In this document: in pieces, positions 1 to 12,574 of the stretch
How the letters are laid out: every line of letters starts with the position of its first letter
How positions within the stretch are numbered: position 1 is the first letter of the stretch
Origin: Bacteroidota bacterium
Lineage (GTDB): Bacteria; Bacteroidota; Bacteroidia; UBA4408
Assembly (NCBI GenBank): GCA_016718805.1
Contig: JADKCP010000002.1
Location: 56,392 to 120,391 of the forward strand
Length of the DNA stretch: 64,000 nt
Reading direction: 5' to 3'
The notes under the pieces: model-generated
What the model saw: only the letters and a program-made list of their open reading frames with translations
Databases searched by the model: none
Told to the model about the DNA's origin: nothing
Made by a program: the position numbers and the translations under genes

Positions 1-833
1 TTTGCTTTTTGTATTTAAACAGATTACACTTTTCAACTTTTATTTATTCGTTATATCTAACCTATGGATTAAGCTGTTTAATTGGATTGTATTTTTTATT
101 TCCATTGATTAGCATCAAATTTTCGTTTGCTTTTAGAGGTACTTTAATAATGGCATTAACAATTGGTACCATTGCACAACTTGCAAATATTTTTCAGTTT
201 TTAAATTATCGTTTAGATGTTTATTTGTTGGATCGATTTGATTCTATAGCTAATCTTGGGATTTATAGTTCTTCGGTATCAATAGCAGAGGCTGCATTAT
301 TATTTGGAAGTAGCTTTGCCTTAGTTCAATTTTCGAGAATAGCCAATAGCTCCAACACTGATGAATCGCGTATTCTAACTATAAAACTAACTCGTTACAG
401 TACATTGCTTACGTTAATTGCCTATTTGCCTTTGTTTGTGTTTCCGGATGAATTTTATACTTTTTTATTAGGCAAAGATTTTCATCAAGTAAAGCAAGTA
501 TTGTTTGCTTTGTTTCCAGGTATATTTTTTCTTGGCTCAAGTGTTACAATAAGTCATTTTTTTGCAGGTATAGGAAACTATAAAATGAATGCTTTAGCCT
601 CTTTCATAGGATTAATCATATCATTTTGTTTGGGTATTTTATTTATTCCTGATTATGGATTTATAGCTGCTGCATGGATTTCGAGCATTTCATATTCAGC
701 CAGTACTTGCGTTTTGGTAATTGGATTTATTAAAAATAGTAATACAAAATTGAAAGAATTGTTTCCGAAGTTTGAAGATTTAAGCTTTTTACAAAAATCA
801 ATACTAAATGTGCGGCATAAGCGGAATAGTTAA
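1..833 (+). CDS. Polysaccharide-biosynthesis flippase (Wzx/MOP superfamily), C-terminal portion; 5' end lies upstream of the window
   Basis: Open frame runs from the window edge. Multi-TM hydrophobic protein resembling the C-terminal half of oligosaccharide flippases. Overlaps the downstream asnB-like gene by 26 nt, consistent with an operon. Confidence 0.55.
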   Translation, partial: CFLYLNRLHFSTFIYSLYLTYGLSCLIGLYFLFPLISIKFSFAFRGTLIMALTIGTIAQLANIFQFLNYRLDVYLLDRFDSIANLGIYSSSVSIAEAALLFGSSFALVQFSRIANSSNTDESRILTIKLTRYSTLLTLIAYLPLFVFPDEFYTFLLGKDFHQVKQVLFALFPGIFFLGSSVTISHFFAGIGNYKMNALASFIGLIISFCLGILFIPDYGFIAAAWISSISYSASTCVLVIGFIKNSNTKLKELFPKFEDLSFLQKSILNVRHKRNS

Positions 834-2796
834 ACTAGACAATTCAGATTTAAATTTGCCTGAACTCTTGAAACAGGTTACCAACCGCATAAAACATAGA
901 GGTCCGGATGGGGAAGGATTTTTTTTTGCAAACAGCGAATTTCACACCACTGCATTTGGTGAAGCGAGTCCTGAAAATGTAAAACATGCAGCTTTTGCCT
1001 ACTCTCCCAAACAAGCTATTGATACTATTTCCAATAATTTTAGTTTAGGTTTAGGTCACCGACGACTTTCAATTTTAGATTTAACTTCTACCGGGCACCA
1101 ACCCATGTGCCTTCCTGATAAAAAAAATTGGATTACCTATAATGGTGAGATATACAATTACATTGAACTTCGAGAAGAGTTACAACAAAAGGGACATAAC
1201 TTTATTACCACTTCCGATACAGAGGTAATTTTAAAAGCCTATGAAGAATGGGGCGTTGATTGTGTAACTAAATTTAATGGTATGTGGGCATTTGTAATTT
1301 ATGATGAAGCCCGACAAAATTTATTTGGAAGTCGTGATCGATTTGGAGTTAAGCCGCTTTATTATATCCACACTAATTCAGTATTTGCATTTGCCTCTGA
1401 ACATAAAGCTTTATTGCACGATTCATTGATAAAACCTGAAAAAAATTATGCTGCGGTTTTTGACTATTTCGTATTCAGTAAATTAGAAAACGAAGCAGAA
1501 GGAATATTTAAAAATATTTTTGAACTTAAACCAGCCAGCAATTTTGAGTTTAATTTAACTTCTCACCGATTTAAAATTTGGAAGTACTATCAATTACCTA
1601 TCTCGAATAGCTACGAAAAGTTTTCGCTTACTCGTTTTGAAGAATTAAAAGAACAAACTAAAAATTTAGTAAAGGATTCAGTTCGATTGCGCATGCGTTC
1701 GGATGTCCCGGTTGGATCTTGCTTGAGTGGAGGTTTGGATAGTTCGAGTATTGTGATGATGATGCATGAATTATTAAAAGAAGATGCTAAAAAAATTCAC
1801 CTTTTTACTGCCCGCTTTCATGAGCCGCAGCTTGATGAAGGTAAGTGGGCGCAACAAATTGTAGAAGCTACCAATTCAAATTGGAGTGTAACCTACCCCA
1901 CTGCCGCTGAATTAAAATTAGATTTAGAAAACTTAATGTATGCGCAAGATATACCCATTTGGAGTACCAGTACTTATGCTCAATACAGGGTAATGCAATT
2001 GGCCAAATCGGAAGGGGTGAAAGTCCTTTTAGATGGGCAAGGAGGTGATGAATTATGGGCAGGTTATCCACATCATCAATCAGTGTATATGCGTGAACTT
2101 CTATTGCATGCTAATTTTGCAGAGTCGAAAGCACTTTTGAACAATGCCGGTAAATTTCCATCAAGTATTTTTTGGTTTTTAAAGCAATATTTTAAACACA
2201 GCGGTTTATCGGCATTTCCTAACTTTTTAATTCCTTCAATTTACTCCAACTATTTTTCTCACATTCAATTTTTGAACAAAGACTTCTTTAATGCTAACAA
2301 ACATCGATTTGAACTTCATTATAGCAATGTTCCTAAAACCTTAGACAATCTTTTGAGGCAAGAGCTAAACAATACGCTTTTAAAAGGGTATCTAAAATGT
2401 GAAGATCGTTGTTCAATGTGGCATTCGGTTGAATCGCGAACGCCCTTCGCTGATGATACACGTTTAATTGAATTAGCTTTTGCAACTCCTTCGGTTTATA
2501 AAATACATAACGGGGAAAGCAAATATATTTTTCGAAAAGCAATGCAAGGAATAGTTCCTGATGCTATTTTGCAACGTAAAGATAAGATGGGATACACTAC
2601 TCCTACGCTATCTTGGATAAATGAAATAAAGGAAAGCTTGCGGGATGATTTTTCTGAAAATTTATCGGATGTATTGGATTGTAAGGAAATTCATAACCAC
2701 TATGAAAAATTGTTTTCTGTAAAAAATGGAATCGACAACGGGCAAATTTTTAAATTTATTAGTTATGCTACCTGGCACAAAATTTTCAAATTGTAA
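808..2796 (+). CDS. asnB: Asparagine synthase (glutamine-hydrolysing), class-II amidotransferase
   Basis: N-terminal MCGI (Cys2 nucleophile of Ntn glutamine amidotransferases). HRRLSILD motif. SGGLDSS PP-loop of the synthetase domain. 662 aa, typical length. Confidence 0.9.
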   Translation: MCGISGIVKLDNSDLNLPELLKQVTNRIKHRGPDGEGFFFANSEFHTTAFGEASPENVKHAAFAYSPKQAIDTISNNFSLGLGHRRLSILDLTSTGHQPMCLPDKKNWITYNGEIYNYIELREELQQKGHNFITTSDTEVILKAYEEWGVDCVTKFNGMWAFVIYDEARQNLFGSRDRFGVKPLYYIHTNSVFAFASEHKALLHDSLIKPEKNYAAVFDYFVFSKLENEAEGIFKNIFELKPASNFEFNLTSHRFKIWKYYQLPISNSYEKFSLTRFEELKEQTKNLVKDSVRLRMRSDVPVGSCLSGGLDSSSIVMMMHELLKEDAKKIHLFTARFHEPQLDEGKWAQQIVEATNSNWSVTYPTAAELKLDLENLMYAQDIPIWSTSTYAQYRVMQLAKSEGVKVLLDGQGGDELWAGYPHHQSVYMRELLLHANFAESKALLNNAGKFPSSIFWFLKQYFKHSGLSAFPNFLIPSIYSNYFSHIQFLNKDFFNANKHRFELHYSNVPKTLDNLLRQELNNTLLKGYLKCEDRCSMWHSVESRTPFADDTRLIELAFATPSVYKIHNGESKYIFRKAMQGIVPDAILQRKDKMGYTTPTLSWINEIKESLRDDFSENLSDVLDCKEIHNHYEKLFSVKNGIDNGQIFKFISYATWHKIFKL

Positions 2797-2936
2797 ATCA
2801 ATCCATTCATCGAATCATTGCACCTTTCGGTATATTATTTTTGTTAAAAATTTGTATTCAGTAAAATTTCTTCCTAGTTTTACGAATGTTAAGTAAAGTA
2901 ATTAATTAACCTTTAAATAATCTAAAAACAAAAAAC

Positions 2937-4847
2937 ATGAAAAAACAATTACTCATGGTTCTTGCAATTTCTGCTTCTTTAAGCACTTTTGCAAAAACAC
3001 AACCTGCACGAGCTCGTGTAACTGTGGCGCCAAACGCTAAAGCTGTTCCTTTACGTCAGGCACAAGGTGGTTATAATGAAACACCTTTTAATACCAATCC
3101 TAGTTTAGGCTTGGTTGCGCCTACAAAAGCTTATCGTGCAAGTAGCACCATCACTGAGCAATCAATTGGTTTAACTACTTACGATTTGCAAACAAATAGT
3201 GCTATTATGAACCGTTTGTTGAAACACAACGACGGAACTATTTCTGCCACTTGGACAATGATTCCTCCAGGAGGAGTATCTGCAGCTCGTGGTACTGGTT
3301 ACAACTATTATGATGGAACTAGCTGGGGACCTGCACCTGCCGCTCGTATTGAACCAACAAATCGTGTTGGATTCGTAAACGTTGTGGTAACACCGAGTGG
3401 ACGTGAAATGGTAATCGCTCACTCAGCTGTAGGTATGTTACTTACCTCGCGCCCACAAAAAGGAACCGGTGCATGGACTGAAGATGCTACCGTTTTAGGA
3501 GGTGTTGGTTCAGATACTTGGTCTAAAGCTATCAATGGTGGTGCTAATGGAGAAACTGTTCACTCTATTTGGAATGCAAATTCTGCGGGTGCTAATGGTC
3601 AAAATTTTTCATTATACTACTCTCGTTCATTAGATGGTGGTGTTACCTGGCCAGTTCTTCGTACAGTTTTAGCTGACTTAGATTCTACTAAATATCGTGG
3701 TTTCGGTGGGGATGCTTATTCTATCGATACTAAAGGTGATACAGTAGTATTTGTTGTTGGAGACTTCGATACAGATTTAGTATTGATGCGTTCTACTGAC
3801 AATGGTGTTAGCTGGACTTCAACCGTAATCCAACCATTCTTCCAAGCAATGTATGATGATGCAACAGATTCTTTTCCTGATTTAGATGGAGACGGAACTT
3901 CTGACCGTATGGAAGGTTGCTCTGGTGATGCTCACGTAATGCTTGATAATTTAGGAAAAGTTCACGTTTGGTGGAGCAATGTATTAATGACTGATACTTC
4001 AGCTGCAGATCTTTTAGGATATTTCCCTAATTCAATTGATGGTTTATTGTATTGGAACGATGGATTTGCTACTGGACAAGCTCCTGATACCATTGCTTTT
4101 GCACAAGACGGAATTAACGGTAACGGTACACTTGATATTCCACAAGCCGGTTTAGGTGGTGGTAATGGAATGGGTGGTTACCGTGGTAGTGTAACTCAAA
4201 TGCCAACTTCAGGTGTAGATGCTAACAACAATATTTACGTTGCTTACCAAACATATTGCGAAGATTGCGATACAACTGCATTCAACACAGGGCACAAACA
4301 CATTTACATGATTGCTACTGCAAACCAAGGTGCAACATGGAGTAACCCAACTGACATCGATCAAACTCCAGATTTATTAAATCAGGAAGATGTATTTGCT
4401 TGTGTTGCTAAAAATGTTGATGCTAACTGTATCCACGTAATTTATCAACGTGATGCTGCTCCTGGACATTCATTATCTGCAAATGCAACTGAAGCAGGAT
4501 GGAACTCAGCTCCAAGTGAAATTATTTATGCTTGTATAACACCTTCTGATATACTTGGTGTGAAAGCTGTAAATAAAAACAATGCAGTAGCTGGACTAAG
4601 CCAAAACACTCCAAATCCTGCTGAAGGTAAAACTACAATTAACTACAACGTTGCTGCAAATGCATCAGTAGTTAGCTTTACTGTTACCGACGTATTAGGA
4701 AATGTGGTTTATACTGAAAATAAAGGAACTGTAAATGCTGGATCTTATTCAGTTGTTTTAGATACTGAAGCTATGAATAGCGGTGTTTACTTCTATACAT
4801 TAACAGTTAACAACCAAAAAGAAACCAAAAAAATGATGGTGAAGTAA
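2937..4847 (+). CDS. T9SS-secreted BNR/Asp-box repeat protein, paralogue 1 of 3
   Basis: Signal peptide. Asp-box motifs (SRSLDGGVTWP, RSTDNGVSWT, ANQGATWS). C-terminal ~80 aa Por/T9SS sorting domain (…SFTVTDVLGNVVY…GVYFYTLTV…). About 60-70% identical to the next two ORFs. Confidence 0.8.
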   Translation: MKKQLLMVLAISASLSTFAKTQPARARVTVAPNAKAVPLRQAQGGYNETPFNTNPSLGLVAPTKAYRASSTITEQSIGLTTYDLQTNSAIMNRLLKHNDGTISATWTMIPPGGVSAARGTGYNYYDGTSWGPAPAARIEPTNRVGFVNVVVTPSGREMVIAHSAVGMLLTSRPQKGTGAWTEDATVLGGVGSDTWSKAINGGANGETVHSIWNANSAGANGQNFSLYYSRSLDGGVTWPVLRTVLADLDSTKYRGFGGDAYSIDTKGDTVVFVVGDFDTDLVLMRSTDNGVSWTSTVIQPFFQAMYDDATDSFPDLDGDGTSDRMEGCSGDAHVMLDNLGKVHVWWSNVLMTDTSAADLLGYFPNSIDGLLYWNDGFATGQAPDTIAFAQDGINGNGTLDIPQAGLGGGNGMGGYRGSVTQMPTSGVDANNNIYVAYQTYCEDCDTTAFNTGHKHIYMIATANQGATWSNPTDIDQTPDLLNQEDVFACVAKNVDANCIHVIYQRDAAPGHSLSANATEAGWNSAPSEIIYACITPSDILGVKAVNKNNAVAGLSQNTPNPAEGKTTINYNVAANASVVSFTVTDVLGNVVYTENKGTVNAGSYSVVLDTEAMNSGVYFYTLTVNNQKETKKMMVK

Positions 4848-4869
4848 TTTCATCTCAGTTTTAAAAGAA

Positions 4870-4903
4870 ATCGGCTGGCTCTTTGAGTCAGCCGATTTTT
4901 TTT
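4870..4903 (+). terminator. Rho-independent terminator (stem ATCGGCTG / CAGCCGAT followed by T8)
   Basis: Perfect 8-bp GC-rich inverted repeat with 11-nt loop and a run of 8 T, 23 nt after the stop codon. Confidence 0.7.
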
Positions 4904-5134
4904 ATTCCTAAAAGCTAAATTTTCCATTCTAATTTTTACATGGAATAGTGTCACTATAACCTTGTGAATTTATTTTCAATCGAATTCAAATAATTTTATC
5001 TTTAAACTAGATTTTAAGAAGTAATCGATTATAATAAAACAAAGCAGGATTAATTTAATCGGTTTTGATTTGAATTTTGATTAACTTTTAAAGAAGCTGT
5101 TACTATTATTTCTTATTCACTTTATTTAAAGCCT

Positions 5135-7033
5135 ATGAAAAAATTCTTACCATTTTTAACGCTAATTAATTTTTGTGTAGTAGCTAGTGCTTTAGGTCAA
5201 GCGAAGAGAATTCAAATTAACTCAAGTGCTAAATCACAGCCAATTTCAATTTATAAAACTGATGTATCCGATAGAAACACAAGTATAAATAGAAATTTAG
5301 GGATAAATTACCCACATCAATTAAAAACTCCTCAAATCGCTAGTGGGGTTATCGAAAATTCAATAGGGCTAACACAATACGATTTGCAAACAAATGGTTC
5401 TATTTCGAATAGATTAATAAAGCATAACGACGGTACTATTTCAGCTACATGGACAATGATACCACCAGCTGGAGCATCATCAAGTCGTGGAACCGGTTAC
5501 AACTATTTTAATGGTACTACTTGGGCCCCTGCTCCTGCTGCACGTATTGAACCTACGTATCGTACAGGATTTACAAATATAGTAGTTACATCAAGCGGTC
5601 GGGAAATGGCCATAGCTAATTCGAGCACAGCCCCCGGTATGTTAATTACCTCTCGCACGCAAAAAGGAATCGGATTATGGGCCGAAGATGCTATTGTATT
5701 AGGAGCAGCAGCAAACGATTCTTGGTCAAAGGCAATTTCGGGTGGTGCAAATGGCGAAACTGTGCATGCTTTATGGAATGCAAACATTAATGGAGCAAAT
5801 GGACAATATTCATCTGTTTACTATTCTCGGTCAATAGATGGTGGTGTAACCTGGCCAATATTAAGACAAGTACTACCGGAGCTCGATTCAACGCATTATA
5901 GAGGATTTGGAGGCGATTCATATTCCATAGATACCCATGGCGATACAGTGGTATTTGTTATTGGCAGCTTTACTACTGACCTTGTATTAATGCGCTCAAC
6001 TGATAATGGAAATACCTGGAATGCAAAAGTTATTCAGCCATTTTTTAAGGCCTTGTATAATGATGCTAAAGATTCTTTTCCTGATTTAAATGGTGATTCA
6101 AAATCTGATTTTATGCAAGGTCCTTCAGGAGATGCCCATGTAATGATTGATAATTTGGGTATGACACATGTGTGGTGGAGCAATGTATTGATGAGCGATA
6201 GTTCTGCTGCTGATTTAGTAGAATTTTTTCCAAATAAAATAGATGGACTTTTGTATTGGAATGATGGTTTTATGATTGGGCAGGCTCCTGATACTATTGC
6301 ATATGCAATGGATGGACTGAATGGAAACGGCATACTTGATATTCCTTTAAGTGGAATTGGTGGATCAAATGGAATGGGCAATTATAGAGGAAGTATCACA
6401 CAAATGCCAAGCGCAGGTGTAGATGCGAACAACTATATCTATGTGACTTACCAATCATTTTGCGATGATTGCGATACAACAGCATTTAATTTAGGACACA
6501 AACATGTCTACTTAATAAGGTCATTAGATCAAGGAATTAGTTGGCTAACACCTGTTGATATAGACGAAACACTTGACGCACTCAATCAGGAAAATGTATT
6601 TGCCTGTGTAGCAAAAAAAGTTGATCCTACTTGTATCCATGTAATTTTTCAAAGAGATGCGCAACCAGGTATTTTAAATCAAAGTGGAGGGGGAAATACG
6701 CCAAGTGAAATTGTTTATGCTTGTGTTGATCCAATGATTATTGGAATCAACAAAGTAAAAGAATTTAAATCAAGCAATTTTTTGAGCCAAAACACTCCAA
6801 ATCCGGCTGAAGGTAAAACTACCATTAACTACAACGTTGCTGCAAATGCATCAGTAGTTAGTTTTACTGTTACCGACGTATTAGGAAATGTGGTTTATAC
6901 TGAAAATAAAGGAACTGTAAATGCTGGATCTTATTCAGTTGTTTTAGATACTGAAGCTATGAATAGCGGTGTTTACTTCTATACATTAACAGTTAACAAC
7001 CAAAAAGAAACCAAAAAAATGATGGTGAAGTAA
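5135..7033 (+). CDS. T9SS-secreted BNR/Asp-box repeat protein, paralogue 2 of 3
   Basis: Same architecture as paralogue 1. The N-terminal ~150 aa are almost identical to paralogue 3. The C-terminal ~85 aa and 3' flank are almost identical to paralogue 1. Confidence 0.8.
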   Translation: MKKFLPFLTLINFCVVASALGQAKRIQINSSAKSQPISIYKTDVSDRNTSINRNLGINYPHQLKTPQIASGVIENSIGLTQYDLQTNGSISNRLIKHNDGTISATWTMIPPAGASSSRGTGYNYFNGTTWAPAPAARIEPTYRTGFTNIVVTSSGREMAIANSSTAPGMLITSRTQKGIGLWAEDAIVLGAAANDSWSKAISGGANGETVHALWNANINGANGQYSSVYYSRSIDGGVTWPILRQVLPELDSTHYRGFGGDSYSIDTHGDTVVFVIGSFTTDLVLMRSTDNGNTWNAKVIQPFFKALYNDAKDSFPDLNGDSKSDFMQGPSGDAHVMIDNLGMTHVWWSNVLMSDSSAADLVEFFPNKIDGLLYWNDGFMIGQAPDTIAYAMDGLNGNGILDIPLSGIGGSNGMGNYRGSITQMPSAGVDANNYIYVTYQSFCDDCDTTAFNLGHKHVYLIRSLDQGISWLTPVDIDETLDALNQENVFACVAKKVDPTCIHVIFQRDAQPGILNQSGGGNTPSEIVYACVDPMIIGINKVKEFKSSNFLSQNTPNPAEGKTTINYNVAANASVVSFTVTDVLGNVVYTENKGTVNAGSYSVVLDTEAMNSGVYFYTLTVNNQKETKKMMVK

Positions 7034-7055
7034 TTTCATCTCAGTTTTAAAAGAA

Positions 7056-7088
7056 ATCGGCTGGCTCTTTGAGTCAGCCGATTTTTTA
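7056..7088 (+). terminator. Rho-independent terminator (same hairpin as 4870-4903, T6)
   Basis: Identical stem ATCGGCTG/CAGCCGAT and loop followed by a T-run. Confidence 0.7.
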
Positions 7089-7317
7089 TTCCTAAAGCTA
7101 AATTTTCCATTCTAATTTTTACATGGAATAGTGTCACTATAACCTTGTGAATTTATTTTCAATCGAATTCAAATAATCTTATCTTTAAACTAGATTTTAA
7201 GAAGTAATCGATTAAAATAAAACAAAGCAGGATTAATTTAATCGGTTTTGATTTGAATTTTGATTAGCTTTTAAAGAAGCTGTTACTATTATTTCTTATT
7301 CACTTTATTTAAAGCCT

Positions 7318-9225
7318 ATGAAAAAATTCTTACCATTTTTAACGCTAATAAATTTTTGTGTAGTAGTTAGTGCTGTAGGTCAAGTGAAGAGAATTCAAAT
7401 TAACTCAAGTGCTCAATCACAGCCAATTTCAATTTATAAAACAGATGTTTCCGATAGAAACACAAGTATAAATAGAAATTTAGGGATAAATTACCCACAT
7501 CAATTAAAAACTCCTCAAATCGCTAGCGGGGTTATCGAAAATTCAATAGGGCTAACAGAATACGATTTGCAAACAAATGGTTCTATTTCGAATAGATTAA
7601 TAAAGCATAACGACGGCACTATTTCAGCAACATGGACAATGCTGCCACTGGGTGGAATATCTTCAAGTCGTGGAACCGGTTACAACTATTTTAATGGTAC
7701 TACTTGGGCCCCTGCTCCTGCTGCACGTATTGAACCTGCGAATCGAACAGGATTTACAAATATAGTAACAACAACAAGTGGTCGTGAAATGGCCATAGCT
7801 CATTCAAGCACAGCACCGGGTATGATAATTACTTCTCGCCTTCAAAAAGGAAGTGGTCCTTGGTTAGAATATACAACTGCATTAGGATCTGCTGGAAATG
7901 ACGGCTTTGCTAAAGCAATTTCAGGTGGTGCAAATGGCGAAACTGTGCATGCTTTATGGAATGCAAACATTAATGGAGCAAATGGGCAATATTCATCTGT
8001 TTACTATTCTCGGTCATTAGATGGTGGTGTAAACTGGCCAATATTGAGACAAGTATTACCGGAGCTCGATTCAACGCATTATAGAGGATTTGGAGGCGAT
8101 TCATATTCCATAGATACCCATGGCGATACAGTGGTATTTGTTATTGGCAGCTTTACTACTGACCTTGTATTAATGCGCTCAACTGATAATGGAAATACCT
8201 GGAATGCAAAAGTTATTCAGCCATTTTTTAAGGCCTTGTATAATGATGCTATAGATTCTTTTCCTGATTTAAATGGTGATTCAAAATCTGATTTTATTCA
8301 AGGTACATCAGGAGATGCTCATGTAATGATTGATAATTTAGGAATGACACATGTATGGTGGAGCAATGTACTGTTGAGCGATACTTCTGCTTCAGCTGCA
8401 ATTAGTCTTTTACCAAATTCAATCGATGGACTATTATACTGGAATGATGGTTTTGCAATAGGACAAGCACCTGACACCATTGCTTATGCTCTAGATGGGG
8501 TTAATGGAAACGGGATACTAGACATTCCGGCTTCAAATACTAGCAATGGTTATGCAAATGGCATGGGTTTTTATCGTGGAAGTATTACACAAATGCCAAG
8601 TTCTGGAGTCGATATTAACAACATTATTTATGTATCCTATCAGTCATTTTGTGAGGATTGTGATACTTCTGCCTGGAATGTTGGACACAAACATGTATAC
8701 CTAATAAAGTCAACTGATCAAGGAGCAAATTGGTCTACACCTGTTGATATAGACGAAACTCTAAACGCAATCTATCAGGAAAATGTATTTGCCTGCTTAG
8801 CAAAAAAAGTTGATCCTACTTGTATCCATGTAATTTTTCAAAGAGATGCGCAACCAGGTGTTTTAAATTCAAGTGGAATATGGGGACTGATTTCAAGTGA
8901 AATTGTTTATGCTTGTGTTGATCCCATGATTGTTGGAATCAACAAAGCAAAAGAATCTATTTCATACAATTATTTAAGCCAAAACACTCCCAATCCTGCT
9001 GAAGGTAAAACTACCATTAACTACAAAGTTGCTGCAAATGCATCAGTGGTTAGCTTTACTGTTACCGATGTTTTAGGAAAGGTTGTTTATACTGAAAACA
9101 AAGGAACTGTAAATGCCGGAACTTATTCATTAGTTTTAGATACAGAGGCTATGAATAGCGGTGTGTACTTCTATACTTTAACTGTCAACAACCAAAAAGA
9201 AACCAAAAAAATGATGGTGAAGTAA
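7318..9225 (+). CDS. T9SS-secreted BNR/Asp-box repeat protein, paralogue 3 of 3
   Basis: Signal peptide identical to paralogue 2. Asp-box motifs. More diverged T9SS C-terminal domain (YKVAANASVVSFTVTDVLGKVVY…). Confidence 0.8.
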   Translation: MKKFLPFLTLINFCVVVSAVGQVKRIQINSSAQSQPISIYKTDVSDRNTSINRNLGINYPHQLKTPQIASGVIENSIGLTEYDLQTNGSISNRLIKHNDGTISATWTMLPLGGISSSRGTGYNYFNGTTWAPAPAARIEPANRTGFTNIVTTTSGREMAIAHSSTAPGMIITSRLQKGSGPWLEYTTALGSAGNDGFAKAISGGANGETVHALWNANINGANGQYSSVYYSRSLDGGVNWPILRQVLPELDSTHYRGFGGDSYSIDTHGDTVVFVIGSFTTDLVLMRSTDNGNTWNAKVIQPFFKALYNDAIDSFPDLNGDSKSDFIQGTSGDAHVMIDNLGMTHVWWSNVLLSDTSASAAISLLPNSIDGLLYWNDGFAIGQAPDTIAYALDGVNGNGILDIPASNTSNGYANGMGFYRGSITQMPSSGVDINNIIYVSYQSFCEDCDTSAWNVGHKHVYLIKSTDQGANWSTPVDIDETLNAIYQENVFACLAKKVDPTCIHVIFQRDAQPGVLNSSGIWGLISSEIVYACVDPMIVGINKAKESISYNYLSQNTPNPAEGKTTINYKVAANASVVSFTVTDVLGKVVYTENKGTVNAGTYSLVLDTEAMNSGVYFYTLTVNNQKETKKMMVK

Positions 9226-9247
9226 TTTCATCTCAGTTTTAAAAAAA

Positions 9248-9280
9248 ATCGGCTGACTCTTTGTGTCAACCGATTTTTTT
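9248..9280 (+). terminator. Rho-independent terminator (diverged copy: ATCGGCTGAC…GTCAACCGAT, one mismatch, T7)
   Basis: Homologous to the two upstream terminators with a single stem mismatch, followed by TTTTTTT. Confidence 0.6.
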
Positions 9281-9539
9281 ATGCCATTAACTTAGACAAT
9301 TTCCCTCAATGAATTTTCTTTCTATTACTTCTTATTCATAAAAAATATAGAACAAAAAAAACTATTCACAGTATAACAAGTTTTAAATTTGTTTCAGTTA
9401 TCAATTCAAGTTAATTGCATCAATAATTGATTAACTCTGTGTTTAACGCAGTTGTTTGAATGCAGGTAGGAATGTATTGTCAATCTCAAAATTTGACGTA
9501 AGTTTGTAACTAAGTGAAACCCGATTAAAGCAAGAAATT

Positions 9540-11960
9540 ATGGAACAAGAGAAAGTATCGGAAAAGCAAGATTTTTCGTTCGAAAAATTCAAAGAGTCAG
9601 TATTGTCTGATTTTAGAATTGCCAACGAAAGTCGTGAAGCAAGTTTGATGGGGCGCCGTGAAGTACTTACCGGTAAAGCAAAATTTGGAATTTTTGGTGA
9701 TGGTAAAGAAGTGGCACAACTTGCTATGGCAAGAGCCTTTAAACCCGGCGATTATAGAGCCGGATACTACCGCGATCAAACGTTTATGATGGCAAGCGGA
9801 CTACTTAGCATTCAGGAATTTTTTGCTCAATTGTATGCACATCCGGATGCAGAAGCTGAGCCATCTTCAGCTGGAAGAAGTATGAACGGACATTATGCTA
9901 CTCGTTTTTTGGATGCGTCCGGTAATTGGAAGGATTTAACTAAAACAAAAAATTCATCTTCCGACATATCTCCTACCGCTGGTCAAATGCCACGACTATT
10001 AGGTATGGCTCAAGCTTCGGCTTTTTATCGAAATAATCCTGAATTAAAACATCCTGATTTTTCTAAGTTTTCAGTTAATGGCAACGAAGTAGCATTCGGA
10101 ACAATTGGAGATGCTAGTACTTCAGAAGGTCTATTTTGGGAAACAATTAATGCTGCCGGAGTTTTGCAAGTACCTATGCTTATTTCGGTTTGGGATGATG
10201 GACATGGAATATCGGTTCCTAAAAAATACCAAACCACCAAAGAAAGTATTTCTGAAATATTGAAAGGTTTTCAACGTGATGAAACTGGTGCAGGCTACGA
10301 AATATTTAAAGTTAAAGGCTGGGATTATGTTGCTTTAGTTGAAACATATCAGCGTGCAGCTGATTTGTGCCGCGAAAAACATGTTCCTGTATTGGTTCAT
10401 GTGGAAGAAATGACTCAGCCTCAAGGACACAGTACTAGTGGTTCGCACGAACGTTATAAATCGAAAGAACGATTGCAATGGGAAGCTGATTTTGATTGCA
10501 TAAAAAAAATGCGTGAATGGATTTTGGCATCAGCTGTTGCTACGGAGGAAGAAGTTGTAGCAATTGAAGAACAAGCTAAAAAAACAACAAGAGATCAAAA
10601 AAGCAAAGCCTGGTCGGCGTTTAACTCACCTATTAAAGAGGAACTACAACAAGCTTTACAGATGATTGATGCAATTGCAGCAGAAAGCACGAATGCACCT
10701 TTTGTTGCTAAAATCAAGGAAGAATTGGTAAGTGTTGTAGATCCGGTTAGACGTGATATACTTGAATGTAGCAAGCGAATTTTACGCATCGTACGGAACG
10801 AACCAATTAATTCAAAAATCGTACTTATCAATTTTCTAAATCAGTCAAAAATTAGCAATACAGAGCGCTATAATTCCTATCTCTATAGCGAAAGTAAATT
10901 TGCTGTGAAGCACCTTACTTCAACTTCGGTGCGCTATGACGAAGATAGAATTGTAGATGGCCGTGAAGTATTACGTGATAATTTTGATGCCTTATTAGGC
11001 AAATATAAATCACTGGTAATTTTTGGTGAAGATGCAGGAAAAATTGGAGGCGTTAATCAGGGATTAGAAGGTTTGCAAAAAAAATACGGAGAAATCCGTG
11101 TGTTCGATACCGGTATTCGAGAAGCAACTATTTTAGGACAAGCCATAGGTTTAGCATTACGTGGATTGCGACCCATTGCTGAAATTCAATATTTAGATTA
11201 TTTGTTGTACGCCGTTCAAATTATGAGCGACGATTTAGCAACCCTTCAATACCGCACTAAGGGAGGCCAAAAAGCTCCTGTAATTATTCGTACACGAGGA
11301 CATCGCTTTGAAGGAATTTGGCACAGTGGTTCCCCAATGGGAATGATAATAAATGCATTAAGAGGTATACACATTTGTGTACCTCGAAATATGACACAAG
11401 CTGCTGCATTTTACAATTTACTGATGCAGGGAGATGAGCCTGCTCTTGTAATTGAACCGCTTATGTGCTATCGTATGAAAGAAAAAATGCCTTCCAATCA
11501 TGGAGAGTATATGTTGAAATTAGGTGTTCCCGAAATTTTAAAAACAGGAAATGATGTAACGATTGTTACCTATGGATATAATTGTCATCTTGCTTTGGAA
11601 GCTTCTAAAATGCTAAGCGAATGTGGTATTGATTGTGAAATTATTGATGTACAAACTTTATTGCCATTCGATATAAATCATAGCATTGTTGATTCAATTA
11701 AAAAAACAAACCGTGTTATTTTCTTTGATGAAGATGTTAGTGGTGGAGCAACCGGCTTTATGATGCAAAAAGTTTTAGAAGAACAAGGTGCATACAAGTA
11801 TATAGATGCCGCCCCTAGAACCGTGTCAGCTAAAGATCATCGCCCACCATATGGTTCGGATGGTAACTATTTTTCGAAACCAAGTGCCGACGATTTATTT
11901 GATGCAGTGTATGAATTGATGCAGGAATCAAATCCAACACAATTTCCTAGAATTTACTAA
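9540..11960 (+). CDS. 2-oxoacid (branched-chain/pyruvate-type) dehydrogenase E1 component, fused alpha+beta subunits, ThDP-dependent
   Basis: 806-aa single chain. ThDP-binding GDAS…E…N motif region (FGTIGDASTSEGLFWETINAAG). C-terminal transketolase-like beta-subunit region (GIREATILGQAIGLALRGLRP…). Confidence 0.85.
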   Translation: MEQEKVSEKQDFSFEKFKESVLSDFRIANESREASLMGRREVLTGKAKFGIFGDGKEVAQLAMARAFKPGDYRAGYYRDQTFMMASGLLSIQEFFAQLYAHPDAEAEPSSAGRSMNGHYATRFLDASGNWKDLTKTKNSSSDISPTAGQMPRLLGMAQASAFYRNNPELKHPDFSKFSVNGNEVAFGTIGDASTSEGLFWETINAAGVLQVPMLISVWDDGHGISVPKKYQTTKESISEILKGFQRDETGAGYEIFKVKGWDYVALVETYQRAADLCREKHVPVLVHVEEMTQPQGHSTSGSHERYKSKERLQWEADFDCIKKMREWILASAVATEEEVVAIEEQAKKTTRDQKSKAWSAFNSPIKEELQQALQMIDAIAAESTNAPFVAKIKEELVSVVDPVRRDILECSKRILRIVRNEPINSKIVLINFLNQSKISNTERYNSYLYSESKFAVKHLTSTSVRYDEDRIVDGREVLRDNFDALLGKYKSLVIFGEDAGKIGGVNQGLEGLQKKYGEIRVFDTGIREATILGQAIGLALRGLRPIAEIQYLDYLLYAVQIMSDDLATLQYRTKGGQKAPVIIRTRGHRFEGIWHSGSPMGMIINALRGIHICVPRNMTQAAAFYNLLMQGDEPALVIEPLMCYRMKEKMPSNHGEYMLKLGVPEILKTGNDVTIVTYGYNCHLALEASKMLSECGIDCEIIDVQTLLPFDINHSIVDSIKKTNRVIFFDEDVSGGATGFMMQKVLEEQGAYKYIDAAPRTVSAKDHRPPYGSDGNYFSKPSADDLFDAVYELMQESNPTQFPRIY

Positions 11961-11983
11961 CCAACTGTTTTCATACCAATAGC

Positions 11984-12574
11984 ATGAAAATAGGATTGTT
12001 TTTTGGCTCCTTTAATCCCGTACACGTTGGGCATTTGGTGATTGCCAATTACATGGCTCAATATACCGATTTACAAAAAGTATGGTTGGTAATTTCACCG
12101 CACAATCCACTGAAGGAGAAAAGTAGTTTACTCGATGATAAACAACGTTTGGCATTGGTTAAGTTAGCCATCGAAAACAACAGTAAATTAAAAGCTAGCG
12201 ATATAGAATTTAAATTACCACAACCCTCCTACACTATCACGACCTTATTACATTTAAAGGAAAAATATCCTGAACATGAATTTGCTTTAATTATGGGAAG
12301 CGATAATTTAAGTACCTTTCATAAATGGAAAAATTATGAAGAGATTTTGAAGTATCATCAACTTTATATTTATCCGCGTCCACAGCAAAGCGGTGAAAAT
12401 TATAAACAACATCCACAAGTAAAATTTGTGGAAGCACCGGTTATGGAAATCTCATCAACCTTTATTCGACAAGCCATAGCCGACAAGAAAGACGTTCGTT
12501 ATTTACTCCCCGATAACGTTTACGAATATGTGAAAGAAATGCACTTTTATAAAAAGAAAAAGTTATCTATTTAA
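11984..12574 (+). CDS. nadD: Nicotinate-nucleotide adenylyltransferase
   Basis: GSFNPVHVGHL (H/TxGH nucleotidyltransferase motif). SSTFIRQ near C-terminus. 196 aa. Confidence 0.9.
   Translation: MKIGLFFGSFNPVHVGHLVIANYMAQYTDLQKVWLVISPHNPLKEKSSLLDDKQRLALVKLAIENNSKLKASDIEFKLPQPSYTITTLLHLKEKYPEHEFALIMGSDNLSTFHKWKNYEEILKYHQLYIYPRPQQSGENYKQHPQVKFVEAPVMEISSTFIRQAIADKKDVRYLLPDNVYEYVKEMHFYKKKKLSI

What the first reader, a model, noticed from the sequence alone, without database searches (positions are those of the whole stretch)
4590..7317. Homogenised ~540-nt block (CDS 3' end + 287-nt spacer with terminator and promoter region) repeated at 4590-5134 and 6780-7317
The last ~250 nt of paralogues 1 and 2 differ at only about 3 positions. 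Their downstream spacers (4848-5134 and 7034-7317) differ at about 5 positions, including a T8-versus-T6 terminator tail. The flanking coding sequence upstream of ~4590/6780 is clearly diverged. A sharp identity boundary inside the genes is the footprint of recent gene conversion or unequal crossing-over. The block provides roughly 540 bp of perfect homology. That could mediate further expansion or contraction of the array, so copy number may vary between strains.
Basis: seen in the sequence. Interest (0 to 1): 0.5.

Follow-up and report, generated by a model that had tools for sequence, protein, structure and literature searches.

The report
Recombining tandem secreted-protein gene array
The repeated block is the shared tail (secretion-signal coding region, terminator and intergenic spacer) of three tandem genes for secreted propeller proteins in an uncultured Bacteroidota bacterium. 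Recombination within this tail has kept the copies alike and has added or removed whole genes between closely related strains, which is a clear but ordinary case of unequal crossing-over and gene conversion.

Summary
Window 4599-5134 and 6785-7317 differ by 6 substitutions and 2 homopolymer indels, while the 536 nt upstream are only about 66% identical. A max-chi-square scan puts the breakpoint at 4599.

The block is the T9SS type-A C-terminal sorting domain (CTD) coding module, a hairpin terminator and the intergenic spacer. It sits in a three-gene tandem array (g1 2937-4847, g2 5135-7033, third gene 7318-9225) of sialidase-fold propeller proteins.

The block does not end at 5134/7317. Identity of 95-98% runs on into the next genes, giving a 2,186-nt repeat unit.

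Synonymous divergence between g1 and g2 is 1.56 in the body and 0.057 in the CTD. In distant arrays of the same family the CTD is less conserved than the body. This points to recombination, not selection.

Related MAGs carry g1-g2-g3 with a 146-nt g2-g3 spacer. The window's third gene is instead a g2-type allele preceded by a copy of the g1-g2 spacer.

One haplotype (L152) equals the window minus exactly one unit (4599-6784) and is otherwise about 99.65% identical.

This is a known kind of event and of modest interest.

The parts
2937..4847 (+). g1: first tandem paralogue (636 aa). It has a signal peptide, a sialidase-fold propeller body and a T9SS type-A CTD.
   Evidence: ORF. PF18962 and TIGR04183 score above their cut-offs. 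It is 99.9% identical to L001 g1.
4599..4847 (+). CTD-coding module, copy 1 (last 82 codons plus stop of g1).
   Evidence: The max-chi2 breakpoint is at 4599. Por_Secre_tail matches aa 558-636. CTD dS versus g2 is 0.057.
4848..5134 (+). g1-g2 intergenic spacer (s12), 287 nt.
   Evidence: Sequence. It is conserved in L001 and in the sister species L002, with a mean column identity of 96% across five copies. No Rfam family matches.
4862..4904 (+). Intrinsic-terminator-like hairpin with an A-tract and a T8 tail, copy 1.
   Evidence: RNAfold gives -27.9 kcal/mol.
5135..7033 (+). g2: middle paralogue (632 aa). Its 5' half is like the third gene and its CTD is like g1.
   Evidence: Three-way site pattern. 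It is 98.6% identical to L001 g2, with the differences clustered in the CTD and at 5231-5479.
6785..7033 (+). CTD-coding module, copy 2. It is g1-type, unlike the L001 g2 CTD.
   Evidence: There are 3-5 differences from the g1 CTDs but 14 from the L001 g2 CTD. dS versus the L001 g2 CTD is 0.208 against 0.014 for the body.
7034..7317 (+). Second copy of the s12 spacer. It replaces the 141-146-nt hairpin-less g2-g3 spacer seen in L001 and L002.
   Evidence: Spacer comparison. Collinearity with L001 breaks at 7055. All six substitution markers are identical to the L152 block.
7051..7087 (+). Terminator-like hairpin, copy 2 (T6 tail).
   Evidence: RNAfold gives -25.0 kcal/mol.
7318..9225 (+). Third gene (g2'): a mosaic g2-type allele (635 aa). 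It is not the orthologue of g3 in L001 or L002.
   Evidence: Identity is 69% to L001 g3, 89% to L001 g2 and 92% to L002 g2. The segmental mosaic is shown. It is 99.9% identical to the L147 gene.
8977..9225 (+). CTD-coding module, copy 3. It is about 92% identical to copies 1 and 2 and is closest to the L001 g3 CTD.
   Evidence: BLAST hit 8975-9280 at 92.5%. There are 8 differences from the L001 g3 CTD. Collinearity with L001 resumes at about 9000.
9242..9280 (+). Terminator-like hairpin, copy 3 (weaker stem).
   Evidence: RNAfold gives -16.7 kcal/mol.
4599..6784 (.). One 2,186-nt repeat unit (CTD module, spacer and g2 body). It is present in the window and absent from haplotype L152.
   Evidence: L152 aligned to the window with 4599-6784 removed shows 36 substitutions and 40 indel columns in 10,337 nt, with no substitutions from 6785 to 7349.

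Best explanation
What is there. The block is the shared 3' module of a tandem array of three paralogous genes in an uncultured activated-sludge-type Bacteroidota genome. Each gene encodes a Sec signal peptide, a sialidase-fold beta-propeller with Asp-boxes, a variable linker and a T9SS type-A C-terminal sorting domain (CTD). The module consists of the CTD-coding sequence, the stop codon and a hairpin terminator. Two of the three copies also include the whole 284-287-nt intergenic spacer.

How it works. Homologous recombination between these directly repeated modules does two things.
1. It repeatedly homogenises the CTD-coding sequence among the paralogues by gene conversion. This has gone on since before the split from a sister species.
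2. When the partners pair one unit out of register, it deletes, duplicates or replaces whole 2.2-kb units.

History of this lineage. The ancestral arrangement g1-g2-g3 lost the g2-g3 spacer and the g3 body by exchange between the g2 and g3 CTDs. That produced two-gene arrays. An out-of-register exchange at the 5' edge of the CTD, between a g2 gene and the g1 CTD of a two-gene array, then produced the window's g1-g2-g2' array, or the reverse deletion occurred. This explains why the g1-type CTD and the g1-g2 spacer appear twice.

Why the edge is sharp. The left edge at 4599/6785 is where homology starts. The linker just upstream has indels and dN/dS near 1, and it stops heteroduplex extension.

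Shown versus inferred.
- Shown: the step, the dS contrast, the structural variants and the unit-sized indel.
- Inferred: RecA-type mechanism, the order and direction of events, whether donors were sister chromosomes or DNA from other strains, and terminator and secretion function.
For: - Step and breakpoint.
- Gene and domain identity. Fold.
- dS, body versus CTD: g1/g2 1.56 versus 0.057. All nine within-genome paralogue pairs give body 0.34-1.84 versus CTD 0.06-0.36. The window g2/g2' pair is the one exception, at about 0.35 in both.
- The CTDs do not group by orthology.
- In eight distant arrays of the same family the CTD is less conserved than the body, for example 20-42% versus 39-54% aa. 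There is therefore no intrinsic constraint that would explain 92-99% nt identity.
- The g2 CTD was replaced since the split between the window and L001: dS 0.208 versus 0.014. The differences cluster at 6784-7053.
- L001 and L002 have a 141-146-nt g2-g3 spacer without a hairpin, whereas the window has a copy of s12.
- The window's third gene is g2-type.
- Independent contigs show the same junctions. L145 is collinear with 6802-12429 at 98.4%. L147 has g1-block-g2' with g2' 99.9% identical.
- L152 equals the window minus 4599-6784.
- Two-gene arrays occur in L148 and L149. A single gene occurs in L146.
- L147 carries a hybrid marker pattern inside the block: copy-1 states 5', copy-2 states 3'.
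Against: - All sequences are metagenome assemblies. The repeats could mislead assemblers, and several supporting contigs (L085, L145, L147, L149) are short-read contigs that start or end in the repeat.
- The direction of the event (gain or loss of a unit) cannot be polarised.
- The exchange point would lie within the first 21 nt or so of the homology (6785-6805), which is a narrow interval.
- The few marker sites (six substitutions) form a patchwork. Depending on the scenario, this requires extra small conversion events.
- No direct evidence exists for secretion, expression or terminator activity.
Confidence: 0.85

Rival explanations
1. The arrangement is an assembly artefact. The window's g1-g2-g2' order, and the duplicated block, would arise from a mis-traversal of the repeat in a mixed-strain metagenome, with the g2' gene being a second strain's g2 allele.
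For: - The source is a MAG.
- The repeats do break or circularise other assemblies. L085 has an exact 110-nt terminal repeat at unit length 2,186. L145 starts exactly at the CTD edge.
- One MAG bin holds two haplotypes of the locus.
Against: - The window lies on a 348,943-nt contig. Its accession series matches that of long-read 'tig' assemblies (the link to the long-read activated-sludge MAG study, PMC8012365, is my inference). A 2.2-kb repeat is easily spanned by long reads.
- Each block copy carries its own private variants.
- The g2' gene with both of its junctions recurs in three independent assemblies: L145, L147 and L152.
- A mis-join would need two switches inside shared runs of 56 nt or less, plus loss of g3.
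Confidence: 0.05
2. Purifying selection on the secretion signal alone keeps the CTD-coding ends alike, with no recombination.
For: The CTD is a functional signal, and its dN is very low (0-0.04).
Against: - Synonymous sites are also nearly identical: dS 0.057 versus 1.56.
- Identity continues through 287 nt of non-coding spacer.
- In distant arrays of the same family the CTD diverges faster than the body.
- The g2 CTD differs between near-identical strains 15 times more than the body does.
Confidence: 0.02
3. A single recent tandem duplication of a whole gene was followed by rapid divergence in place, through positive selection, of the propeller body. Only the tail would then remain alike.
For: - A whole 2,186-nt unit is indeed repeated.
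- The linker shows dN/dS of about 1-1.4.
Against: - The divergent stretches have saturated synonymous divergence (dS 1.1-1.9) with dN/dS of 0.1-0.26. This indicates old sequence brought together by recombination, not fast protein evolution.
- The divergent patch 8390-8810 matches the L002 g2 allele at 92-100%.
Confidence: 0.05
4. The array is a dedicated, programmed variation system, such as a diversity-generating retroelement, invertible cassettes or site-specific recombinase shuffling, that diversifies a surface protein.
For: Alleles are mosaic, with dimorphic patches. The protein is probably surface-exposed.
Against: - There are no inverted repeats in the 64-kb window.
- None of the flanking genes examined encodes a reverse transcriptase or recombinase. 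They are AsnB-like, E1 dehydrogenase, NadD, lipid A genes, peptidases and transporters.
- Differences are not adenine-biased patches at a C-terminal variable region. Junctions fall in long direct homology, as expected for general recombination.
Confidence: 0.03

Closest known systems
Domain rearrangement and allelic exchange in T9SS-secreted surface proteins of Porphyromonas gingivalis (gingipains RgpA/Kgp, HagA; Dashper et al. 2017, PMC5266723)
   Same: Both involve CTD-bearing T9SS cargo genes of Bacteroidota whose modules are shuffled between paralogues and strains by homologous recombination or gene conversion, giving mosaic alleles.
   Different: In P. gingivalis the shared repeats are adhesin domains in unlinked genes of a cultured pathogen. 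Here the recombination substrate is the CTD-coding module plus terminator and spacer of a tandem array. The outcome includes gain or loss of whole genes. The proteins are sialidase-fold propellers of unknown function in uncultured bacteria.
Concerted evolution of bacterial paralogues by RecA-dependent gene conversion (for example tufA/tufB in Salmonella, and rRNA operons). This comparison rests on my own knowledge and was not tested here.
   Same: Paralogues within a genome are more alike than orthologues. Synonymous divergence is reduced in the converted tract, and the tract has sharp borders.
   Different: Here only one domain-sized module is homogenised, while the rest of each gene stays about 65-70% identical. 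The copies are adjacent direct repeats, so out-of-register exchange also changes gene number.
Unequal crossing-over in tandem gene arrays, producing chimeric genes and copy-number polymorphism (textbook cases: haemoglobin Lepore/anti-Lepore, opsin arrays, bacterial tandem amplifications). This comparison rests on my own knowledge.
   Same: The middle gene is chimeric, the intergenic spacer is duplicated, and haplotypes differ by exactly one repeat unit.
   Different: This is a bacterial metagenomic population. The partners were probably different alleles or strains, and the homology used is a short conserved secretion-signal module.

Membership tests
T9SS type-A CTD cargo protein (Por_Secre_tail, TIGR04183 / PF18962) | A C-terminal domain of about 75-80 aa matching the family model above its curated cut-off | tested here: met
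   TIGR04183 scores 42.6-45.2 bits (cut-off 23). PF18962 scores 42.8-43.9 bits (cut-off 27). Both hold for all three genes. The family profile also hits the PDB chain 8glj_D Por CTD.
T9SS type-A CTD cargo protein (Por_Secre_tail, TIGR04183 / PF18962) | An N-terminal Sec signal peptide | tested here: inconclusive
   The sequences begin MKK followed by a hydrophobic stretch. The model predicts a helix at residues 5-20 followed by a disordered region. No signal-peptide predictor was available.
T9SS type-A CTD cargo protein (Por_Secre_tail, TIGR04183 / PF18962) | A host that encodes the T9SS machinery (PorK/L/M/N, Sov/SprA, PorU/V) | not tested
   Ten large ORFs elsewhere in the window show no T9SS component. 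The rest of the genome is not available. All homologues come from Bacteroidota MAGs.
Sialidase / BNR (Asp-box) six-bladed beta-propeller | Propeller fold similar to GH33/GH145-type structures | tested here: met
   The AlphaFold model has pLDDT 77. Foldseek PDB hits have probability 1.0 and include 5mum (GH145, TM 0.64 on the target), neuraminidases 3h6j and 4irt, and PorZ 5m11.
Sialidase / BNR (Asp-box) six-bladed beta-propeller | Asp-box motifs S-x-D-x-G-x-x-W | tested here: met
   There are two to three motifs per protein, at about aa 231-233, 286-288 and 463-465.
Sialidase / BNR (Asp-box) six-bladed beta-propeller | Pfam BNR_2 match above the gathering score, and the catalytic Arg triad with Tyr/Glu nucleophile | tested here: not met
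   BNR_2 scores 19-22 bits against a cut-off of 31.4. Identity to solved sialidases is about 10-13%. Catalytic residues were not examined. I therefore file the proteins as sialidase-fold, not as sialidases.
Concerted evolution by gene conversion | Synonymous divergence much lower in the tract than in the flanking coding sequence | tested here: met
   For g1/g2, dS is 0.057 in the CTD and 1.56 in the body. The same direction holds for eight of the nine within-genome paralogue pairs across three genomes; the window g2/g2' pair is about 0.35 in both.
Concerted evolution by gene conversion | Tract sequences group by genome or neighbour rather than by orthology, and a near-identical strain differs in the tract | tested here: met
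   CTD difference matrix. For window g2 versus L001 g2, the CTD dS is 0.208 and the body dS is 0.014.
Unequal crossing-over product in a tandem array | A chimeric gene, a duplicated spacer, and haplotypes that differ by exactly one unit | tested here: met
   Chimeric site pattern. The s12 spacer is duplicated, whereas relatives have a 146-nt spacer. L152 equals the window minus 2,186 nt.
Unequal crossing-over product in a tandem array | Physical confirmation of the array length by reads or amplicons spanning it | not testable with these tools
   No read data are available.

The most novel reading that the evidence does not exclude
The CTD-coding module with its terminator may be more than a passive repeat. 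It could act as a conserved, portable recombination handle that lets Bacteroidota swap, duplicate and delete the passenger domains of T9SS cargo genes as cassettes, within arrays and between strains. Its nucleotide-level homogeneity would then be maintained because the resulting turnover of surface proteins is advantageous, for example against phage or grazers. Independent homogenised CTDs in other arrays of the family are compatible with this: L072 has 100% CTD identity against 85% for the body, and L007 and L006 show the same direction.
Probability: 0.15. Interest if true: 0.55.

Novelty: new member of a known kind. Interest (0 to 1): 0.3.

Why it matters
- It gives a clean natural example, resolved to a 21-nt interval, of how a short conserved secretion-signal module drives both homogenisation and gene gain or loss in a tandem array of surface or secreted proteins in uncultured wastewater Bacteroidota.
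- It warns annotators and MAG users that such arrays are structurally polymorphic between strains more than 99% identical, and that they break or collapse short-read assemblies.
- It does not reveal a new mechanism.

Tried and rejected
- Other copies in the window: BLAST and tblastn of the block and the three proteins found only the three array copies in 64 kb. A whole-window repeat scan found no other repeat families and no inverted repeats.
- RNA families: an Rfam search of 2700-9700 gave only sub-threshold noise on the hairpins.
- Terminators and promoters: the sigma-70/terminator consensus scan missed the hairpins and found no more promoter-like sites than in shuffled sequence. A Bacteroidota -7 motif (TAnnTTTG) search found no exact match in the two spacer copies, so the promoter claim stays unverified.
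- Small ORFs in the spacer: only one 34-aa minus-strand ORF, judged to be chance.
- Exact-protein look-ups of the window's g2 and third gene in the contig index returned nothing.
These were useful for the generality test but not for finding close strains.
- The metagenome scan gave only two close contigs.
- One search had a slicing bug and was redone.
- Polarising the unit gain or loss from the six marker sites was attempted and abandoned as under-determined.

Full report
THE OBSERVATION

The window holds three tandem ORFs on the plus strand: g1 2937-4847, g2 5135-7033 and a third gene 7318-9225. They lie between an AsnB-like amidotransferase gene (808-2796) and a fused E1 dehydrogenase gene (9540-11960).

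- three substitutions in the coding part (4619, 4637, 4676);
- three substitutions in the spacer (4995, 5032, 5084);
- a T8/T6 difference at 4896-4897;
- a 1-nt indel at 4910.

Directly upstream, identity falls to about 50-70% per 50-nt window. The contrast is 371 of 560 aligned columns upstream against 527 of 536 in the block (Fisher p = 5e-51). A max-chi-square scan over the whole g1/g2 alignment places the breakpoint at g1 coordinate 4599, with chi2 of 208 against a maximum of 14 in permutations. The step is real.

Three details need correcting:
- The homology is not perfect. The longest exact run is 219 nt.
- The left edge is 4599/6785.
- The right edge at the start codons is artificial. 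Identity of 95-98% continues from the g1-g2 spacer into g2, and from the second spacer copy into the third gene, to about 5650/7833 and again over about 5743-6160 versus 7926-8340.

The repeat period is 2,183-2,186 nt. The three-way site pattern shows that g2 resembles the third gene upstream of 6785 and resembles g1 downstream of it.

WHAT THE GENES ARE

Each protein ends in a T9SS type-A sorting domain. TIGR04183 scores 43-45 bits against a cut-off of 23, and PF18962 scores 43-44 bits against 27. The step at 4599 is the first codon region of that domain, beginning ...SQNTPNPAEGKTT.

The body has two or three Asp-boxes and only a sub-threshold BNR_2 match. An AlphaFold model built on 29 homologues has pLDDT 77 and an all-beta body. 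Its best PDB matches are sialidase-fold propellers: GH145 5mum, putative neuraminidases 3h6j and 4irt, and the T9SS component PorZ 5m11. Sequence identity to these is about 12%. I call the proteins sialidase-fold T9SS cargo. Catalytic function is not established.

The family is widespread in uncultured Bacteroidota. A protein search gave 229 hits. A scan of species-representative genomes gave at least 573 loci, all of those listed being Bacteroidota MAGs. Among 85 loci examined, 19 had two or three tandem copies.

Downstream of g1 and g2 there is a strong hairpin with a T-tail (-27.9 and -25.0 kcal/mol). A weaker one follows the third gene. No Rfam family and no exact Bacteroidota promoter motif was found in the spacer.

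RECOMBINATION, NOT SELECTION

Synonymous divergence between g1 and g2 is 1.56 in the body and 0.057 in the CTD. Across the window and two related genomes, eight of the nine within-genome paralogue pairs show body dS of 0.69-1.84 against CTD dS of 0.06-0.30. The window g2/g2' pair is the exception, at about 0.35 in both. Identity also continues through the non-coding spacer.

The CTD variable sites do not group by orthology. In eight distant arrays of the same family the CTD is less conserved than the body, for example 20-42% versus 39-54% amino-acid identity. The domain therefore has no intrinsic constraint that could explain 92-99% nucleotide identity here.

Some other arrays do show the same homogenisation independently. 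In L072 the CTD is 100% identical against 85% for the body, and L007 and L006 show the same direction.

The divergent patches between g2 and the third gene (aa 171-203 and 356-478) have dS above 1 with dN/dS of about 0.2. Neighbouring segments have dS of about 0.1. This is a mosaic of old alleles, not rapid divergence in place.

COMPARISON WITH RELATIVES

L001 (GCA_016717585.1) is 99.3% identical to window 1-7055. L002 (GCA_035438985.1) is a sister lineage at about 88%. Both carry g1-g2-g3, with the 287-288-nt spacer after g1 but only a 141-146-nt hairpin-less spacer between g2 and g3.

The window's third gene is not their g3 (69% identity). It is a g2-type allele, 89% identical to L001 g2 and 92% to L002 g2. 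One segment, 8390-8810, matches the L002 allele at 92-100%.

Collinearity with L001 breaks at 7055 and resumes at about 9000, at the start of the last CTD. Between the window and L001 the g2 body has dS of 0.014 but the g2 CTD has dS of 0.208. The window's g2 CTD is g1-type, with 3-5 differences from g1 CTDs and 14 from the L001 g2 CTD. In the window's lineage, the segment [g1-type CTD + g1-g2 spacer + g2-type body] therefore occupies the place of [g2 CTD + short spacer + g3 body].

COPY-NUMBER VARIATION

The cluster look-up shows that the window's g2 and third gene are MBK9478354.1 and MBK9478355.1, on a 348,943-nt MAG contig. Further contigs give other arrangements:
- L147 (GCA_017988095.1) has g1, then one block, then a gene 99.9% identical to the window's third gene, then E1_dh.
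- L148 and L149 have asnB-g1-g2*-E1_dh.
- L151 (GCA_016721255.1, 724-kb contig) has the L001-type three genes.
- L152, a 22-kb contig of the same MAG, has asnB-g1-block-g2'-E1_dh.
- L146, a distant relative, has a single gene at the syntenic site.

Aligned to the window with 4599-6784 removed, L152 differs by 36 substitutions and 40 indel columns in 10,337 nt. There are no substitutions between 6785 and 7349. All six substitution markers of its single block match the window's second copy. L147 carries a hybrid block, with copy-1 states at the 5' markers and copy-2 states at the 3' markers. L145 is collinear with window 6802-12429 at 98.4% and begins exactly at the CTD edge. L085 is a 2,296-nt contig with an exact 110-nt terminal repeat, which corresponds to one 2,186-nt unit closed on itself.

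Near-identical haplotypes therefore differ by exactly one unit, with the junctions inside the block.

MOST LIKELY HISTORY (INFERRED)

1. The g1-g2-g3 arrangement is ancestral, because it is shared with the sister lineage and has an orthologous g3.
2. Exchange between the g2 and g3 CTDs deleted the short spacer and the g3 body, giving two-gene arrays.
3. An out-of-register exchange at the 5' edge of the CTD (between 6784 and 6805) joined a g2 gene to the g1 CTD of a two-gene array. This produced g1-g2-g2'. Alternatively, the reciprocal deletion produced L152 from a window-type array.

The six markers cannot polarise the last step. The sharp edge is explained by where homology begins. The linker just upstream has indels and dN/dS of about 1-1.4.

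RIVALS

- An assembly artefact is the only serious rival. It is weakened by four points: the large contig, the private variants in each block copy, the recurrence of g2' with both junctions in three independent assemblies, and the need for two switches within shared runs of 56 nt or less. That the source is a long-read assembly is my inference from the accession series and from 'tig' contig names of neighbouring records and the study in PMC8012365.
- Selection alone is refuted by the dS contrast.
- Divergence in place is refuted by the segmental dS values.
- A programmed variation system has no support. There are no inverted repeats, and the flanking genes I examined include no recombinase or reverse transcriptase.

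COMPARISON WITH WHAT IS KNOWN

The closest described case is domain rearrangement and allelic exchange among CTD-bearing surface proteins of Porphyromonas gingivalis (PMC5266723). Full-text searches for type IX secretion combined with gene conversion or concerted evolution returned only that paper and one paper on machinery phylogeny. I found no description of CTD-module homogenisation in tandem cargo arrays.

The mechanism itself, concerted evolution and unequal crossing-over in tandem repeats, is textbook. I rate this a new member of a known kind, with interest 0.3. The T8/T6 and A-run differences are homopolymer-length differences and may be sequencing errors.

Noticed in passing
window 5645-5743 and 6200-6568 (g2) versus 7828-7926 and 8383-8760 (third gene): There are two dimorphic patches in g2-type genes (aa 171-203 and 356-478), with dS above 1 between alleles that are otherwise at dS of about 0.1. 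The window's third gene carries the allele found in the sister lineage L002 (dS 0.13). This suggests old balanced alleles or introgression. The second patch includes a long low-confidence loop (aa about 390-420).
   Followed up: partly
window 6665-6790 / 8854-8976 (aa 511-552, the linker before the CTD): The linker between propeller and CTD has indels and dN/dS of about 1-1.4 between g2-type alleles, unlike the rest of the protein at 0.07-0.36. It is itself mosaic: L001 g2 and g3 share the KEFKSSNF version, while the window's third gene and L002 g2 share KESISYNY.
   Followed up: partly
L145:1413 region (equivalent to window 8146): A 38-nt insertion relative to the window splits the g2' gene into 297-aa and 350-aa ORFs in GCA_053525835.1. 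It is either a real frameshifting insertion (a pseudogene) or an assembly error.
   Followed up: no
L085 (= L150), Ga0075163_10204836, 1-110 and 2187-2296: This contig has an exact 110-nt terminal direct repeat and a unit length of 2,186 nt. That is the signature of a tandem repeat collapsed into a circular path by a short-read assembler. Its gene is yet another mosaic: the 5' 400 nt are like the window's third gene and the body is like g2.
   Followed up: yes
L151 and L152 (both GCA_016721255.1): One MAG bin contains two haplotypes of the same locus, a three-gene g1-g2-g3 array on the main contig and a two-gene g1-g2' array on a 22-kb contig. Strains with different array types therefore co-occurred in one sample.
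   Followed up: partly
L072:10001-13858; L007:2332-6344: These are independent arrays of the same protein family in unrelated Bacteroidota MAGs, and they also show CTD homogenisation. In L072 the CTD is 100% identical against 85% for the body, and the identity stops at the stop codon. Most other arrays show the opposite pattern.
   Followed up: partly
window 1-2796 and L001:2643-7662: The array lies directly downstream of polysaccharide-synthesis genes: a GT4 glycosyltransferase/methyltransferase, a Wzx-like flippase and an AsnB-like amidotransferase. This may be of interest because type-A CTD cargo is anchored to a lipopolysaccharide in P. gingivalis (my own knowledge). No link was tested.
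   Followed up: no
window 5231-5479: There is a cluster of 10 differences between the window's g2 and L001 g2 in 250 nt, whereas the rest of the body is almost identical. At these sites the window's third gene matches L001 g2, which suggests a small imported patch in the window's g2.
   Followed up: partly
L086 (WBZU01001114.1):8294-9516: In a relative about 85% identical to L001, the gene after g1 is not g2-type. It is about 75% identical to g1 and 72% to g2. The array content differs again in this lineage, and the contig ends inside the gene.
   Followed up: no
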